A stretch of 44,857 nt of DNA, taken from UHGV virus genome UHGV-0186980; one strand, given 5' to 3'. Below are positions 41,157 through 44,857 of the stretch, piece after piece. The stretch's first letter is position 1. Each line of letters begins with the position of its first letter. Position numbers and translations under genes: made by a program. This DNA comes from a virus. A model generated the notes under the pieces. It worked only from the letters and a program-made list of their open reading frames with translations, made no database searches and was not told the DNA's origin.

Positions 41157-41729
41157 GTGAACCATTTAATGATCGACCTCGAAACGATGGGCAATAAGCC
41201 TGCTGCACCAATCGTTGCGATCGGCGCTGTATTCTTCGCCCCGAAAAGCAGTGAGTTGGGCGCAGAGTTCTATATGGCCGTTAACCTCGCCAGTGCTATG
41301 GATCAGGGTGCGACACCTGACGGTGATACTATCCTGTGGTGGCTCAAACAATCATCAGAGGCCCGAGCAGCTATTTGTACTGACGATACCAGAAGCATTA
41401 CATTTGCTCTCTCCGAGTTGAGTTCATTTATCAGCCGTCACTCTGACAACCCACGATATCTGAAAGTCTGGGGTAATGGTTCTAACTTTGACAATGTGAT
41501 TTTACGCTCAGCCTACGACCGCGCCGGCCAAACCTGCCCGTGGCAATTCTGGAACGACTGCGACGTGCGCACCATGGTGTTGCTCGGCAAACAACTTGGT
41601 TTCGACCCTAAGCGCAAGATGCCATTTGATGGTGTAGCCCACAATGCACTGGCCGATGCTCGCCACCAGGCAAAATACGTGTCCGCAATCTGGCAAAAGC
41701 TAATTCCAGCCACCAGCACCGAAGAATAA
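41157..41729 (+). CDS. DEDDh 3'-5' exonuclease
   Basis: MIDLETMG (D-x-E), downstream H/D residues; GTG start after AGGAG. Confidence 0.7.
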   Translation: MNHLMIDLETMGNKPAAPIVAIGAVFFAPKSSELGAEFYMAVNLASAMDQGATPDGDTILWWLKQSSEARAAICTDDTRSITFALSELSSFISRHSDNPRYLKVWGNGSNFDNVILRSAYDRAGQTCPWQFWNDCDVRTMVLLGKQLGFDPKRKMPFDGVAHNALADARHQAKYVSAIWQKLIPATSTEE

Positions 41730-41983: not shown

Positions 41984-43165
41984 ATGGCAGCAAGGCCAAG
42001 AAAAAGGGAATACCGCCATCTACCTGATTATCTAATATTTGATAAAGATCGCGGCGTTTATAAATTCACCTTAATTACAGGGAAGAAAAAGAACATTGGG
42101 AAAGATCGGGCTATAGCCATCGCTATTGCGCGCGAATACAACCTCAGAATGCGGCAGGCAAATGCTCCGTCAGTTGAATTGCTTATCCGTGATTCTGGCG
42201 GCGTGTCGGGTGAAGCTAAACCTTTTGCCGAGCATGTTGATCACATCATGGCGCGTGCGATTGAAAATGAACGTCCGTCGCAAAATACGCTTGATGACTG
42301 GAACAACGACGCACTAAGGGTGAAGGAATTCTTTAGCAACATACCAGCTTGCGATATTGAGCTGGAGCATGTGAACGCCTACATAAAGCATTACCACTCA
42401 GATTCATCAGCGAACGTACAAAACCGGAAGGTCAGCTTCCTTAAAAAATTGTTCTCGTATGCGGTCGATGAATCATTGATGTTTGATAATCCTGCTACAC
42501 GCAAAAAAATGCGAAGAACCGAAGAGAAGAAACGCCAGCGTCTTTCACTCGATAACTTTAAAGCCATTCGTCGGGCCGCCGAACCCTGGTTACGCACCGC
42601 GATGGATTTAGCATTACAGACGACGCACGCTCGCCTTGAAGTGTCTAGGATTCGGTATTCAATTCGTGAACCTAAGAACGGTATTTGTGGTTGTGTATGG
42701 CTCGAACAGCCAGAAGATGGCATATATGGAACGCTTTACATCCATCGTCAAAAGGTACAAAAGAAGGAAGCATCGCACGTTGCGATTCCAATTGGGGATG
42801 AGCTAAAGCGCATAATTGATGAAAGTAGGGATAACGTAGCTAGTCCGTTTGTTGTTCATCGGATTCCGGAGCGACAGGTTAAACGCAGTAAAGAAGTTTC
42901 ACACCCAACTCAAGTTGCGCCTGACTATCTTAGTCGCTCGTTCTCCTCGTTACGCGATGAGCTAGGGCTTTGTGATCATCTTGCGATGGACGAACGCCCT
43001 ACATTTCACGAGATCAGAGCCCTTGCAGCACATTTGTTTAATAGCCAAGGAATCGATCCTCAAGGCAGAATGGCTCACAGTGATGCAAAATCAACAAAGA
43101 TTTATACTCAAAACCACATTGATTGGATCGTCGTTCCACACGGGGAAATTAAATACAATGCATAA
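41984..43165 (+). CDS. int: Tyrosine integrase
   Basis: 393 aa; C-terminal HEIRALAAHL...AHSDAKSTKIYTQNH catalytic region. Confidence 0.9.
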   Translation: MAARPRKREYRHLPDYLIFDKDRGVYKFTLITGKKKNIGKDRAIAIAIAREYNLRMRQANAPSVELLIRDSGGVSGEAKPFAEHVDHIMARAIENERPSQNTLDDWNNDALRVKEFFSNIPACDIELEHVNAYIKHYHSDSSANVQNRKVSFLKKLFSYAVDESLMFDNPATRKKMRRTEEKKRQRLSLDNFKAIRRAAEPWLRTAMDLALQTTHARLEVSRIRYSIREPKNGICGCVWLEQPEDGIYGTLYIHRQKVQKKEASHVAIPIGDELKRIIDESRDNVASPFVVHRIPERQVKRSKEVSHPTQVAPDYLSRSFSSLRDELGLCDHLAMDERPTFHEIRALAAHLFNSQGIDPQGRMAHSDAKSTKIYTQNHIDWIVVPHGEIKYNA

Positions 43166-43199
43166 TGAAATTGGCCTCAAATGAGGCCAATTAGTGGGA

Positions 43200-43583
43200 T
43201 TAGGAAGCTTCTGACTTGGTCATATCAGCGCAACGCTGGATTAATTTCTCTGCAGTCTTAATTGCGGTGCTTGATTGGGTTGATGTAACAGTGTCGTTAA
43301 GTCTGTAATCACAAACTATTCTCTGATCCTTAAGCGATTGTAGAGCATACCCCAAACCAATTAAGTCTCTTTTATCAAAAGGTTCGTTGCCCTTCCAAGC
43401 ATCGTTAACGAGATAGTCAATGAGGCCCTGGTGACTTTCCTTCGGCCCCATGGTCAAACACGGAAGTACGTGGTGATAGGCGCCATAATACGCACGAGCG
43501 ACAGCATTTCTGTAACCAATTTCGTCGTTACGTTTTTCACAATCTTTTGCGAAAGCGATAATCTCAGAACTATTAACTGGCAC
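43200..43583 (-). CDS. Cargo protein B (unknown; possible HEPN-like R-x6-H motif)
   Basis: Start refined to GTG 43583 with GGAGGA RBS; 11-nt overlap with cargo A stop; RAYYGAYHH. Confidence 0.5.
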   Translation of the reverse strand: MPVNSSEIIAFAKDCEKRNDEIGYRNAVARAYYGAYHHVLPCLTMGPKESHQGLIDYLVNDAWKGNEPFDKRDLIGLGYALQSLKDQRIVCDYRLNDTVTSTQSSTAIKTAEKLIQRCADMTKSEAS

Positions 43584-44340
43584 GCGCAGGTTCCTCCGAA
43601 TGTCCTTCAAACCAGACGCTGAAAGGTTTTCCAATCAAACTTTCATTTTCTGCAAGAGAAAATGCTATATCTAGGTTCATATCAGAGAGAACATCAGAAT
43701 CTTCAGTATTAACTGTCATGACATACGATGACGTCCGCTCTTCAGGGACAGAGCAGAAAGACATAGCAACAGGACCAACCTTATGGTAGCTCATGATATC
43801 CACAATGCGATTTGCAATATCCTGGAATTCTTCATCAGTAATTCCAGTTGTACTTTTGAAAGTCGTGGATTGGGCCAGTGCTGTGGCTGCGAGGTGCTTA
43901 ACCAATTCAGCCTCCTTTTCATCTACCATACTTATCAACCTCTCAGCATAGTAGAGCGCTTTGTCAATACGCCCCAAGAACAAGTTGGCTTCCCATGCAT
44001 GGGACAACATTGTAGGCGAGTTATAACGTTCAACTAATCGATTTACCGCTTGTTCAACTTCACGAAAACTGCCGTAATCGTTAAGGTAAACTACATAATT
44101 TTGAGCAATGAGTAGGTTGTTATGCTTCAATGCTTCTTCAAAGAATGCAACAGCCGAATCCTTACGCCCAAAAGCACCATTAGCCAACGCTTTGAGATAG
44201 TCCTCAGATGCACTGTCGCGCAACTTTTCTATATCTCTTAGATATCGAAAATATTGCATTTCGGATATCGTACCCCGAGCCGCAAGTATATCGATTAATT
44301 CGCTGCTGATTTCGTTCGCTTTTAGCGCCAATTTTGGCAT
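43573..44340 (-). CDS. Cargo protein A (unknown; helical TPR-like N-terminal region)
   Basis: ATG 44340 with AAGGA RBS (track start is an upstream TTG at 44388); AT-rich DNA between int and att core. Confidence 0.5.
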   Translation of the reverse strand: MPKLALKANEISSELIDILAARGTISEMQYFRYLRDIEKLRDSASEDYLKALANGAFGRKDSAVAFFEEALKHNNLLIAQNYVVYLNDYGSFREVEQAVNRLVERYNSPTMLSHAWEANLFLGRIDKALYYAERLISMVDEKEAELVKHLAATALAQSTTFKSTTGITDEEFQDIANRIVDIMSYHKVGPVAMSFCSVPEERTSSYVMTVNTEDSDVLSDMNLDIAFSLAENESLIGKPFSVWFEGHSEEPARAS

Positions 44341-44508
44341 TAATTTTTCCTTAAGAAGCGTTAGCTCAGTTGCTTTTTCATGTAGCAATCTTAGTAAGTC
44401 TGTGAAGAGTACACGAGGATGCTCTCGATTTCCAACGACCTGTATAACCCTAAAGGAATGTCAACTCTTGACAATTGAATAAATGCCACTTTCATCAACA
44501 AACGAAGA

Positions 44509-44545
44509 TATCCACAGACACGCCTAATGCACAACTCTGTGGATA
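44509..44545. promoter_or_regulatory. Perfect 10-bp inverted repeat TATCCACAGA-N17-TCTGTGGATA upstream of cargo operon (operator or integrase arm-type site)
   Basis: Exact reverse-complement arms; third related half-site CCACAGAAA at 44558-44566. Confidence 0.4.
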
Positions 44546-44778
44546 ACTATTACTTACCCACAGAAATGTACTTTTCGCTCGGTTTGCAAAAAGTGCTATA
44601 GATGGGACCTATTAATAACAGCAAGCAAAAACAAACTGTAAAAATTGTGGGGTAAAACTGACGTTAAGTATTTGATGTATATAGTGTGGATTTTGCATAA
44701 AGCGCACTGTTTGTATATACAGTCGAATACACTCCAGAAGCAGTATTTACAAGGGCTCCAGCACCTTTACAGCAGTGA

Positions 44779-44824
44779 CATGGGGTGTCGGGGGTCGGAG
44801 GTTCAAATCCTCTCGTGCCGACCA
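44779..44824 (+). tRNA. 3' 46-nt fragment of tRNA-Pro(GGG) (proL-like), anticodon loop to CCA; prophage attachment-site core, not an intact gene
   Basis: CATGGGGTGTCGGGGGTCGGAGGTTCAAATCCTCTCGTGCCGACCA matches the 3' part of E. coli proL as remembered; no complementary 5' acceptor half upstream. Confidence 0.7.
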
Positions 44825-44857
44825 AATAATCCCAGTAAAACCAGCCTTTTAAGGCTG

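What the first reader, a model, noticed from the sequence alone, without database searches (positions are those of the whole stretch)
43200..44545. Unclassifiable two-gene cargo operon between int and the att core: candidate defence or abortive-infection module
Two overlapping minus-strand genes lie in AT-rich DNA between the integrase stop (43165) and the tRNA-Pro-derived core (44779), a position where lambdoid and P22-like prophages carry morons. Gene A (about 255 aa, AAGGA RBS) looks all-helical with TPR-like repeats and an unknown C-terminal domain. Gene B (about 127 aa, GGAGGA RBS, 11-nt coupling overlap) carries RAYYGAYHH, which fits the R-x4-6-H pattern of HEPN RNases but does not prove it. 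A perfect 10-bp inverted repeat sits about 130 nt upstream of gene A. I cannot place either protein in a known family from memory.
Basis: partly seen in the sequence, partly recalled or inferred. Interest (0 to 1): 0.8.

Follow-up and report, generated by a model that had tools for sequence, protein, structure and literature searches.

The report
Prophage TPR–HEPN two-gene cargo module
Two tightly coupled genes at the end of a prophage encode a predicted RNA-cutting HEPN protein and a previously undescribed repeat-containing partner; they look like a new variant of the toxin/abortive-infection modules that temperate phages carry, but nobody has tested their function.

Summary
Two minus-strand genes, A (255 aa, 43573-44340) and B (127 aa, 43200-43583), overlap by 11 nt. 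They lie in low-GC DNA between the integrase stop and a 47-nt tRNA-Pro-derived att core.

B can be classified. It is a HEPN domain of the AF0298-like "HEPN-T"/UPF0332 type. They are R88-x3-D92-Y93 at the end of helix 3, an alternative histidine (H51), and E21-x3-R25.

A has three TPR repeats followed by an acidic alpha/beta domain. That domain matches no Pfam, PDB, NCBIfam or PADLOC family.

A is followed directly by B in all 32 loci examined that hold a near-full-length A, including Klebsiella, Vibrio and Burkholderia phages. Both genes are under purifying selection.

The pair is optional cargo. Related E. coli prophages have an empty int-att slot, or carry other genes there, including a PADLOC PDC-S31 candidate. 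An AbiL-like pair follows a related integrase in one further genome.

Best reading, inferred and not shown: a TA-like or abortive-infection module with B as RNase effector and A as neutraliser and sensor, replacing the usual MNT antitoxin. I rate it a new variant of a known kind, of moderate to high interest.

I could not read a 2025 E. coli prophage defence screen, so earlier validation cannot be excluded.

The parts
43573..44340 (-). Gene A, 255 aa. It has an N-terminal helical region with three TPR repeats (about residues 33-148), a long linker helix (141-165), and an acidic C-terminal alpha/beta domain (169-246, pI 4.25) of no known family.
43200..43583 (-). Gene B, 127 aa, a HEPN domain of the AF0298-like HEPN-T/UPF0332 type. 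Invariant residues are E21-x3-R25, H37, H51 and R88-x3-D92-Y93.
   Evidence: The AF2 model has pLDDT 91.7. The Foldseek top hit is 2hsb (AF_0298 HEPN), TM 0.71, followed by other HEPN structures. The family profile matches PDB 9xbd, a 'HEPN domain-containing protein', at E 7e-5. PF05168 matches 23 of 32 family members. Invariant residues come from 19 diverse pairs. PHROG phrog_5176, function unknown, matches at 2e-29.
43573..43583 (-). The 11-nt overlap of the A stop codon with the B GTG start, giving translational coupling. The GGAGGA ribosome-binding site for B lies at 43592-43597, inside A.
   Evidence: Read directly from the sequence. In other loci the junction ranges from a 14-nt overlap to a 2-nt gap.
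44348..44352 (-). AAGGA ribosome-binding site, 8 nt upstream of the A start codon.
   Evidence: The purine-rich block AAGGA/AAAGG is kept in all five aligned loci.
44406..44435 (-). Candidate sigma-70 promoter of the operon: TTGGAA (44430-44435), an 18-nt spacer, then TACTCT (44406-44411). This is an inference from conservation only.
   Evidence: TTGGAAA and TGTAnnCTT are invariant across five loci whose flanks diverge. The site falls below the threshold of the simple consensus scan, which reports no minus-strand promoter here.
44459..44473 (.). Palindrome TGTCAA-CTC-TTGACA between the box cluster and the candidate promoter. It is a possible operator.
   Evidence: Read. GTCAA-N3-TTGAC is present in 4 of 5 aligned loci.
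44506..44564 (.). Cluster of three TTATCCACAG(A) boxes at 44508-18 (+), 44536-46 (-, perfect) and 44554-64 (+). They match the DnaA-box consensus TTATCCACA.
   Evidence: These are the only matches with 1 mismatch or fewer in 44.9 kb. The pair TGTGG[A/G]TAA-N7-TTATCCACAG is invariant in five loci. The boxes are absent from relatives with an empty slot, so they belong to the cargo and not to the att arm.
43169..43192 (.). Perfect 11-bp hairpin (AATTGGCCTCA / TGAGGCCAATT) between the convergent integrase and B stop codons. It is a likely bidirectional terminator.
44779..44825 (+). att core: the 3' 47 nt of tRNA-Pro. It marks the prophage boundary.
   Evidence: 100% identical in L001, L012, L013, L016, L018, L021 and L023. 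A tRNA-Pro is annotated at the same place in E. coli NC19. ARAGORN finds no full tRNA in the window.
41984..43165 (+). Tyrosine integrase, convergent with the A-B operon. It is context and not part of the module.
   Evidence: Pfam finds Arm-DNA-bind_1 and Phage_integrase. It is conserved next to the pair in close relatives.

Best explanation
A and B form a self-contained two-gene accessory module (a moron) that temperate phages carry and express from the prophage. It most likely acts as a toxin-antitoxin-like abortive-infection or superinfection-exclusion system.

**B as effector.** B is a small HEPN domain of the AF0298-like type. Such domains normally dimerise and cut RNA without metal. In B the canonical histidine is replaced by aspartate. 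The predicted active site is R88 at the end of helix 3, plus the alternative H51 from the helix 2-3 insert, supported by E21/R25 in helix 2.

**A as partner.** A takes the place of the nucleotidyltransferase (MNT) antitoxin that usually accompanies this kind of HEPN. I infer that the acidic C-terminal alpha/beta module of A binds and masks B. I infer that the three TPR repeats act as a protein-binding sensor or scaffold. Engagement of the TPRs by a phage protein, or loss of A, would free B to cleave RNA (rRNA, tRNA or mRNA) and arrest the infected cell.

**Shown here**
- The fold and residue pattern of B.
- The TPR array and the unmatched domain of A.
- Strict coupling of the two genes.
- Purifying selection on both.
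- Optional presence of the pair in a variable slot that also holds a defence candidate.

**Inferred**
- RNase activity and toxicity of B.
- Neutralisation of B by A.
- Phage sensing and the defence phenotype.
For: **B is a HEPN domain with an intact alternative active-site pattern**
- AF2 model pLDDT 91.7.
- Best structural match is AF_0298/2hsb at TM 0.71. TT1696, sacsin HEPN, AbiV and HepT follow.
- The family profile hits a PDB HEPN protein and aligns RaYY, sH and R-x3-DY.
- PF05168 matches 23 of 32 family members.
- E21, R25, H37, H51, R88, D92 and Y93 are invariant across 19 pairs that fall to about 25% identity.
- Anantharaman 2013 describes exactly this pattern, D for H with an alternative H in the helix 2-3 insert, for AF0298 and AbiV, and proposes that it is catalytic.
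- AbiV is reported as an rRNA-cutting antiphage HEPN in a bioRxiv preprint.

**The two genes are coupled**
- A B-HMM hit follows A directly in all 32 loci that hold a near-full-length A, counted (loci).
- Junctions range from a 14-nt overlap to a 2-nt gap.
- The order is partner 5', HEPN 3', as in MNT-HEPN pairs.

**Evidence bearing on the role of A**
- A 122-aa protein made only of the C-terminal module of A sits directly upstream of a B homologue in L030. This points to that module as the B-interacting part.
- A is acidic (pI 4.8; C-terminal domain pI 4.25, charge -11). B is near neutral.
- A diverges faster than B: 21-24% against 37% identity in distant pairs.

**Cargo behaviour**
- GC is 0.43 against 0.51 for the rest of the prophage.
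- The slot is empty in E. coli F467, MSB1_9D and CX21.
- The slot is filled elsewhere by a DUF2971 protein matching PADLOC PDC-S31 (5e-22). An AbiL-like ATPase (1.6e-64) lies after a related integrase.
- The same pair sits beside a different integrase family, next to gpA in a P2-like Vibrio prophage, between the lysis and terminase genes, within tail modules, and next to umuDC at a prophage end.
Against: - No experiment exists. Toxicity, RNase activity and phage resistance are all untested.
- Neither protein matches any of the 5027 PADLOC models. NCBIfam gives no match to B and only a negligible one to A (E 0.13, 11 bits against a cutoff of 750).
- The canonical Rx4-6H histidine is absent. HEPN-T members include non-catalytic forms that bind nucleotides or RNA.
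- The residue after R88 is hydrophobic rather than the usual polar N, D or H.
- A solo B-like HEPN occurs without A in Yersinia phage YP3. Orphan proteins of the A C-terminal domain occur without a HEPN neighbour in L032 and L034. The dependence between the two is therefore not absolute.
- I could not model an A-B complex, so the binding interface is unsupported.
- Distance correlations between A domains and B are high for both domains (0.85 for the N-terminal domain, 0.72 for the C-terminal domain). They do not single out the C-terminal domain.
- Evidence from genomic location is suggestive only.
Confidence: 0.5

Rival explanations
1. The pair is a plain toxin-antitoxin addiction module. A neutralises B stoichiometrically, and the pair stabilises the prophage by post-segregational killing, without any specific phage sensing. 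The TPRs would serve only for oligomerisation or proteolytic turnover.
For: The gene order and tight coupling are typical of type II and type VII TA pairs. The upstream partner is acidic. A short-A plus B version without TPRs exists. The pair sits at prophage ends, where stabilisation would matter.
Against: tblastn with A finds no homologue on the 72,556 plasmids searched, although addiction modules are common there. The TPR array is retained in nearly all of about 120 full-length family representatives, which argues that it has a function. The slot and the other insertion sites are of the kind that holds defence cargo. Many TA modules also act in defence, so this rival overlaps the main explanation.
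Confidence: 0.2
2. B is a non-catalytic HEPN that binds RNA, nucleotides or protein. The A-B complex would then have a non-toxic role for the phage, such as regulating lysogeny or host physiology, or counter-defence by sequestering a host HEPN/MNT component or a signalling molecule.
For: The canonical histidine is missing. HEPN-T includes non-catalytic members such as sacsin and NTase-fused forms. A solo B-like gene is tolerated in phage YP3. Several insertion sites lie inside structural or late gene modules of phages.
Against: E21, R25, H51, R88, D92 and Y93 are fully invariant over deep divergence. That is the pattern proposed as an alternative active site, and it is hard to explain for a mere scaffold. 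The relatives with this pattern include AbiV, which is reported to be an active RNase.
Confidence: 0.15
3. The module is a known, already validated defence system under a name not covered by the libraries available here, for example from a 2025 screen of E. coli prophages.
For: Homologues occur in 53 of 5426 complete E. coli genomes, inside prophages. E. coli prophage DNA has been screened functionally (Brenes and Laub 2025, cited). From memory only, that study named a HEPN system 'HepS'.
Against: PADLOC v2 gives no hit. Both PHROGs are of unknown function. RefSeq names both proteins hypothetical. The E. coli accessions are absent from the held parts of the DefensePredictor supplements. Full-text searches for TPR-HEPN, UPF0332 and COG1895 returned nothing.
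Confidence: 0.12

Closest known systems
MNT-HEPN (HepT/MntA) type VII toxin-antitoxin modules
   Same: A small standalone HEPN protein is encoded 3' of, and overlapping, its partner gene. B's closest folds are the NT-associated HEPN-T proteins AF_0298 and TT1696, and HepT also appears among the hits. A conserved tyrosine (Y93) lies next to the motif arginine, as in the MNT-associated HEPNs.
   Different: The partner is not a nucleotidyltransferase. A is 3 TPRs plus an unmatched alpha/beta domain, with no NTase match in Pfam, NCBIfam or PDB. AMPylation of B therefore cannot be the neutralising mechanism. B also lacks the Rx4H histidine of HepT.
AF0298-like HEPN-T subfamily (PDB 2hsb; UPF0332/COG1895-type)
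   Same: This is the best structural match (TM 0.71). It shares the residue pattern R-x3-D with an alternative histidine in the helix 2-3 insert. JGI names B homologues 'UPF0332 family'.
   Different: B's family has additional invariant residues (H37, R25). It is restricted to phages and prophages of Proteobacteria with a dedicated TPR partner, rather than archaeal and thermophile MNT dyads.
AbiV (Lactococcus abortive-infection HEPN RNase, type III TA with an RNA antitoxin)
   Same: AbiV is a HEPN with the same alternative-histidine configuration and acts against phage by RNA cleavage. AbiV structures appear among B's fold hits.
   Different: The similarity is weak (TM 0.40-0.44), and no PADLOC model, AbiV included, matches B. 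The partner here is a protein. No repeat array or known RNA lies in the locus.
HEPN operons with TPR or Sel1 partners predicted by Anantharaman et al. 2013 (LA2681 family; AbiU2 with a Sel1-repeat gene)
   Same: They show the same general logic of a HEPN effector encoded with a repeat-protein partner.
   Different: Those HEPN families keep the canonical Rx4-6H motif and are unrelated in sequence. None is described with the C-terminal alpha/beta domain of A. None has been characterised experimentally, to my knowledge.
RnlA-RnlB / LsoA-LsoB (HEPN RNase toxins with protein antitoxins, acting against T4)
   Same: They work like the proposed mechanism. A HEPN RNase is held inactive by a labile protein antitoxin and is released on infection. 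This comparison rests on established knowledge and the table.
   Different: RnlA and LsoA are large multidomain proteins with the canonical motif. RnlB and LsoB show no similarity to A. Neither family was detected here.

Membership tests
HEPN superfamily | [quoted passage not shown] | tested here: met
   The AF2 model has pLDDT 91.7, with helices at 5-17, 21-42, (51-66 insert), 71-93 and 101-126. The Foldseek top hits are HEPN structures: 2hsb at TM 0.71, then 1ufb, 2q00, 3o10 and 7bxo.
HEPN superfamily | Sequence-profile match to HEPN models | tested here: met
   The family profile matches PDB 9xbd, a 'HEPN domain-containing protein', at E 7e-5. PF05168 hits 23 of 32 family members at E<=1, best 2e-5. 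The window protein itself scores below the reporting threshold.
HEPN superfamily | Canonical Rx4-6H motif at the end of helix 3 | tested here: not met
The motif position reads R88-I-V-C-D92-Y93. Arginine is kept and histidine is replaced by aspartate, invariantly.
AF0298-like HEPN-T / AbiV-type variant | Motif arginine kept, D in place of H, and a strongly conserved alternative H in the helix 2-3 insert | tested here: met
   R88, D92 and H51 are invariant in 19 of 19 diverse pairs. H51 opens the insert helix 51-60. The definition is taken from Anantharaman 2013. The distance between H51 and R88 in the model could not be measured with the tools available.
HEPN superfamily | Acidic residue in helix 2 as part of an Ex3[KR] motif | tested here: met
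   E21-I-G-Y-R25 lies at the start of helix 2. Both residues are invariant.
HEPN superfamily | Metal-independent RNase activity | not testable with these tools
   This needs purified protein or an in-vivo toxicity assay.
MNT-HEPN (type VII TA) | The adjacent partner is a minimal nucleotidyltransferase | tested here: not met
   A has no NTase match in Pfam, NCBIfam, PADLOC or PDB, whether searched as a single sequence or as a profile. Its fold is TPR plus an alpha-beta-beta-alpha-beta domain.
MNT-HEPN (type VII TA) | Partner gene 5', HEPN gene 3', tightly coupled | tested here: met
   The overlap is 11 nt here. Elsewhere the junction ranges from a 14-nt overlap to a 2-nt gap.
AbiV system (type III TA) | Detectable homology to AbiV and an RNA antitoxin locus | tested here: not met
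   PADLOC, which I take to include AbiV models, gives no hit. Foldseek TM is only 0.40-0.44. There are no tandem repeats and no significant Rfam family in 43100-44857.
TPR repeat proteins (N-terminal half of A) | Tandem 34-residue helix-turn-helix repeats recognised by TPR profiles and fold | tested here: met
Catalogued anti-phage defence systems (PADLOC-DB v2.0.0) | Match to a model of a known or candidate defence protein | tested here: not met
   Neither A nor B matches any family at E<=1. Newer catalogues could not be searched.
Prophage moron (accessory cargo) | Optional presence at a fixed slot, atypical composition, and its own expression signals | tested here: met
   The int-att slot is empty in three related E. 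coli prophages and holds different genes in others. GC is 0.43 against 0.51. A hairpin follows B and conserved upstream elements travel with the cargo. Promoter activity itself was not tested.

The most novel reading that the evidence does not exclude
The pair is a minimal, previously undescribed immune module. In it a three-TPR sensor fused to a new acidic alpha/beta 'HEPN-masking' domain has replaced the MNT antitoxin of an AF0298-type HEPN RNase. The alternative active site (R88/H51) would be released when the TPRs bind a phage protein. Transcription of the module would be gated by a conserved pair of consensus DnaA boxes, linking its expression to the replication state of the host.
Probability: 0.25. 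Interest if true: 0.75.

Novelty: new variant of a known kind. Interest (0 to 1): 0.6.

Why it matters
If the inference holds, four things follow:
1. It would add a compact two-gene system (382 aa in total) to the repertoire of prophage-encoded anti-phage or TA modules.
2. It would give the first functional context for the alternative-histidine HEPN-T active site outside AbiV.
3. It would define a new protein domain, the C-terminal module of A, that partners with HEPN and also occurs on its own.
4. It would document the int-proL junction of a family of enterobacterial prophages as a cargo hotspot.

The family is widespread. There are about 145 representative clusters at 50% identity, found in Enterobacterales, Vibrio, Burkholderia and gut-phage metagenomes. 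Both proteins are currently annotated only as hypothetical or as PHROGs of unknown function.

Tried and rejected
**Searches that found nothing for A or B**
- Single-sequence Pfam, NCBIfam and PADLOC searches gave nothing usable beyond sub-threshold TPR hits.
- A profile search of PDB with the whole A family returned only TPR proteins.

**The C-terminal domain of A**
- A profile of the C-terminal domain alone hit only designed helical repeats, which I consider spurious.
- No Pfam family recurred across its members.
- Almost nothing came from the word-indexed protein search.

**Ideas tested and rejected or left open**
- That the TTATCCACAG boxes are integrase arm-type sites: rejected. Empty-slot relatives with the same integrase family and att core lack the boxes.
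- That an RNA antitoxin like that of AbiV is present: no repeats and no significant Rfam family.
- That the C-terminal domain of A co-evolves with B more closely than the TPR half does: not supported. The correlations are 0.72 and 0.85 respectively.
- That the pair is plasmid-borne: tblastn with A found no match.

**Technical limits**
- tblastn with A against the phage collection found nothing, because the phage copies are below 25% identity. They were found through B and then confirmed by HMM.

**Literature**
- The DefensePredictor supplements, which are held only in truncated form, do not list the E. coli accessions.
- Rousset 2022 and Payne 2024 describe other HEPN systems.
- Brenes and Laub 2025 is not held in the library.
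- Searches for 9XBD, COG1895, UPF0332 and TPR-HEPN gave nothing useful.
Full report
**1. The observation**

The ORF list and the sequence show:
- the integrase at 41984-43165 (+);
- gene B at 43200-43583 (-), 127 aa, GTG start, with GGAGGA at 43592-43597;
- gene A at 43573-44340 (-), 255 aa, ATG start, with AAGGA at 44348-44352;
- an 11-nt overlap between A and B.

Longer upstream TTG starts exist for both ORFs. All homologues nevertheless begin at MPQ/MPK (A) and MPV/MSV (B) and have the same lengths. RefSeq annotates the E. coli copies as 768 and 384 nt.

The region has 40-44% GC, against 51% for the rest of the prophage.

The 47 nt at 44779-44825 are the 3' part of tRNA-Pro. They are identical in seven related loci. 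ARAGORN finds no complete tRNA in the window.

It lies 166-208 nt upstream of the A start rather than about 130 nt.

Both genes are under purifying selection. Against relatives, dN/dS is 0.06-0.14 for A and 0.01-0.11 for B.

The window corresponds to IMG/VR contig IMGVR_UViG_3300045988_145841.

**2.

Single-sequence Pfam, NCBIfam and PADLOC searches find nothing for B. PHROGs places it in phrog_5176, function unknown.

Several lines place it in the HEPN superfamily:
- JGI labels homologues "UPF0332 family", and one homologue carries PF05168.
- A profile of 32 homologues hits PDB 9xbd/9xbc, "HEPN domain-containing protein", at E 7e-5. The alignment lines up RaYY, sH and R-x3-DY.
- PF05168 is detected in 23 of 32 family members.
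- The AlphaFold2 model (pLDDT 91.7) is a four-helix bundle with a short helical insert.
- Its best structural match is the AF_0298 HEPN protein (2hsb) at TM 0.71. TT1696, a Sulfolobus PaREP-type HEPN, sacsin HEPN, AbiV, HepT and Csm6 follow.

According to Anantharaman et al. 2013, the Rx4-6H motif sits at the end of helix 3. In the AF0298-like HEPN-T group and in AbiV the histidine is typically absent, with D in its place. A second strongly conserved histidine from the helix 2-3 insert could then form an alternative active site. Many HEPNs also carry an Ex3[KR] motif in helix 2.

B fits this description residue for residue:
- R88-x3-D92-Y93 at the end of helix 71-93;
- H51 opening the insert;
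- E21-x3-R25 at the start of helix 2.

All of these, and H37, are invariant in 19 non-identical A/B pairs that fall to roughly 25% identity.

The conclusion "HEPN" is right, but the argument for it was not.

**3. Gene A is three TPRs plus an unmatched acidic domain**

The window protein alone gives only sub-threshold TPR hits.

An exhaustive profile search found 145 representative clusters. About 120 are full-length proteins of 245-290 aa with the same architecture.

A 97-sequence profile matches consensus TPR proteins at E 1e-43 to 1e-49 over residues 33-148.

The AF2 model (pLDDT 94.8) is helical to residue 165. It then forms helix 169-185, strands 190-198 and 203-210, helix 215-230 and strand 240-246.

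A profile of the C-terminal module alone finds no genuine PDB relative and no recurrent Pfam family.

That module is strongly acidic (pI 4.25, net charge -11), whereas B is near neutral.

**4. The two genes are one unit**

A B-family gene follows directly in every locus where a near-full-length A homologue was recovered: 32 of 32, counted (the loci come). Junctions range from a 14-nt overlap to a 2-nt gap.

This holds for:
- Klebsiella phages ST405-OXA48phi1.3 and Chronis, and a P2-like Vibrio prophage;
- Burkholderia phage vB_E192a;
- metagenomic contigs;
- an Enterobacter sp. SA187 prophage.

A evolves faster than B: 21-24% against 37% identity among distant pairs.

There are informative exceptions:
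- In L030, a 122-aa protein consisting only of the linker helix and C-terminal module of A sits directly upstream of a B homologue, which matches the B HMM at about 1e-39.
- Orphan C-terminal-module proteins without a HEPN neighbour occur in L032 and L034.
- A solo B-like HEPN occurs in the baseplate module of Yersinia phage YP3.

**5. The pair is optional cargo in a variable slot**

In relatives with A at 47% identity or more, the pair always lies between a convergent integrase and the tRNA-Pro core.

In a 37-38% identical group, it lies between a host chemoreceptor gene and an integrase of a different family, Arm-DNA-bind_2.

In other phages it sits:
- next to replication gene A of a P2-like element;
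- between the lysis genes and terminase;
- inside tail modules;
- next to umuDC at a prophage end.

In E. coli, 53 of 5426 complete genomes carry the pair, at proL/yejO.

Prophages with a related integrase at the same site differ in what fills the slot:
- only 137-155 bp between the integrase stop and the core, which is an empty slot (F467, MSB1_9D, CX21);
- an IS3 element plus a hypothetical gene;
- two unrelated hypothetical genes;
- a DUF2971 gene, then an integrase fragment, then B and A.

In one further genome, DUF4760 and an AAA-ATPase pair follow the integrase.

The DUF2971 protein matches PADLOC candidate PDC-S31 at 5e-22. The ATPase matches AbiLi at 1.6e-64.

The slot is therefore a hotspot that also holds defence-type cargo. 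tblastn with A finds no copy on plasmids.

**6. Signals around the operon**

A perfect 11-bp hairpin at 43169-43192 separates the convergent integrase and B stop codons.

Upstream of A, an alignment of five loci shows islands of invariance in otherwise diverged DNA:
- a candidate promoter, TTGGAA-18 nt-TAnnCT, at 44406-44435. It is weak and falls below the scan threshold;
- a GTCAA-N3-TTGAC palindrome at 44459-44473;
- a pair of inverted TGTGG[A/G]TAA / TTATCCACAG boxes.

In the window there are three such boxes within 57 bp (44508-44564). They are the only matches with 1 mismatch or fewer in 44.9 kb.

The boxes match the DnaA-box consensus TTATCCACA, which I take from established knowledge.

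They are absent from the empty-slot relatives. Those relatives keep the core-proximal arm of about 135 bp. The boxes therefore belong to the cargo and not to the integrase arm sites.

Rfam gives no significant family match, and there are no tandem repeats in the locus.

**7. Mechanism**

The best-supported reading is a TA-like abortive-infection or exclusion module.

B would be a dimeric HEPN RNase using the alternative R88/H51 site. A would be its cognate protein partner, standing where MNT stands in the classical MNT-HEPN dyads. In those dyads the partner is 5' and the HEPN is 3'.

The existence of the short-A plus B form points to the C-terminal module as the part that binds or masks B. Its acidity points the same way. 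The TPR array would then act as a protein-recognition sensor or scaffold.

All functional steps are inferred: toxicity, RNA cleavage, neutralisation, the phage trigger and the phenotype.

AbiV is reported in a bioRxiv preprint as an antiphage HEPN RNase that cuts rRNA. Its antitoxin, however, is an RNA.

The rivals are:
- a plain addiction TA without phage sensing;
- a non-catalytic HEPN complex with a regulatory or counter-defence role;
- an already validated system that I could not look up.

**8. Comparison and novelty**

The module works like MNT-HEPN, RnlAB and AbiV-type systems. It fails membership of each:
- no nucleotidyltransferase partner;
- no canonical Rx4-6H motif;
- no detectable homology to AbiV, RnlA or any PADLOC model.

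HEPN genes in operons with TPR or Sel1 genes were noted for other HEPN families in 2013. This particular pairing is different: an AF0298-type HEPN with a protein made of TPRs plus a new domain. I found no description of it in the literature I could search.

The 2025 E. coli prophage defence screen (Brenes and Laub) is not in the library. My memory that it named a HEPN system "HepS" is a lead, not a test.

I rate the finding a new variant of a known kind, with interest 0.6.

Noticed in passing
window 44506-44564: Three TTATCCACAG(A) boxes matching the DnaA-box consensus lie within 57 bp upstream of gene A. In E. coli-type relatives two perfect 9-mers face each other 7 bp apart. The pair is invariant across five loci while the flanks diverge. 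The boxes are absent from empty-slot relatives, so they travel with the A-B cargo and are not integrase arm sites.
   Followed up: partly
window 44459-44473: A TGTCAA-CTC-TTGACA palindrome lies between the box cluster and the candidate promoter. It is conserved as GTCAA-N3-TTGAC in 4 of 5 related loci and is a possible operator.
   Followed up: no
L001 3277-7658; L035-L040: The slot between the integrase and the proL att core varies in related E. coli prophages. It can be empty, hold IS3 plus a hypothetical gene, hold two hypothetical genes, or hold DUF2971 (PADLOC PDC-S31) plus B and A. In GTEN_24, DUF4760 and an AbiL-like ATPase pair follow the integrase, and no att core was found in that locus.
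   Followed up: partly
L001 5649-5998: In the E. coli copies, a C-terminal fragment of a second integrase lies between the DUF2971 gene and B. It is only 39% identical to the window integrase. This suggests cargo built up through successive integration or recombination events at proL.
   Followed up: no
L030 378-1144; L032 151-474; L034 326-607; L031 880-1206: The C-terminal module of A also exists as a standalone protein of 93-122 aa. It occurs once directly upstream of a B-type HEPN (L030), twice with no HEPN next to it (L032, L034), and once after a RelE-like gene on a contig that ends before the neighbour can be seen (L031). It behaves as an independent, mobile domain.
   Followed up: partly
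L042 3507-3866 (Yersinia phage YP3): A solo B-like HEPN gene sits between a virion structural gene and the baseplate wedge gene, with no A homologue nearby. It matches the B HMM at 8e-18 and keeps R, the insert H and R-x3-DY.
   Followed up: no
L043 5242-6004 versus L044 5243-6004: In two assemblies, apparently of the same Enterobacter sp. SA187 chromosome, gene A is intact (253 aa) in one and split into 109-aa and 100-aa ORFs in the other. This is either a frameshift or a sequencing error.
   Followed up: no
window 41157-41729: A gene for an Rv2179c-like 3'-5' exoribonuclease (Pfam E 4e-73) lies just upstream of the small HTH (Xis-like) gene and the integrase. The same arrangement is annotated as '3'-5' exonuclease' in E. 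coli relatives L039 and L040.
   Followed up: no
window 44570-44594 (-): A terminator-like hairpin lies on the minus strand between the att arm and the box cluster. It could insulate the operon from transcription entering from the host flank.
   Followed up: no
L038 6954-7031 versus window 44779-44825: E. coli NC19 has a tRNA-Pro annotated as a complete gene at the integrase-proximal junction. The window has only the 3' 47 nt there, and its other prophage end is missing because the window starts inside a gene.
   Followed up: no
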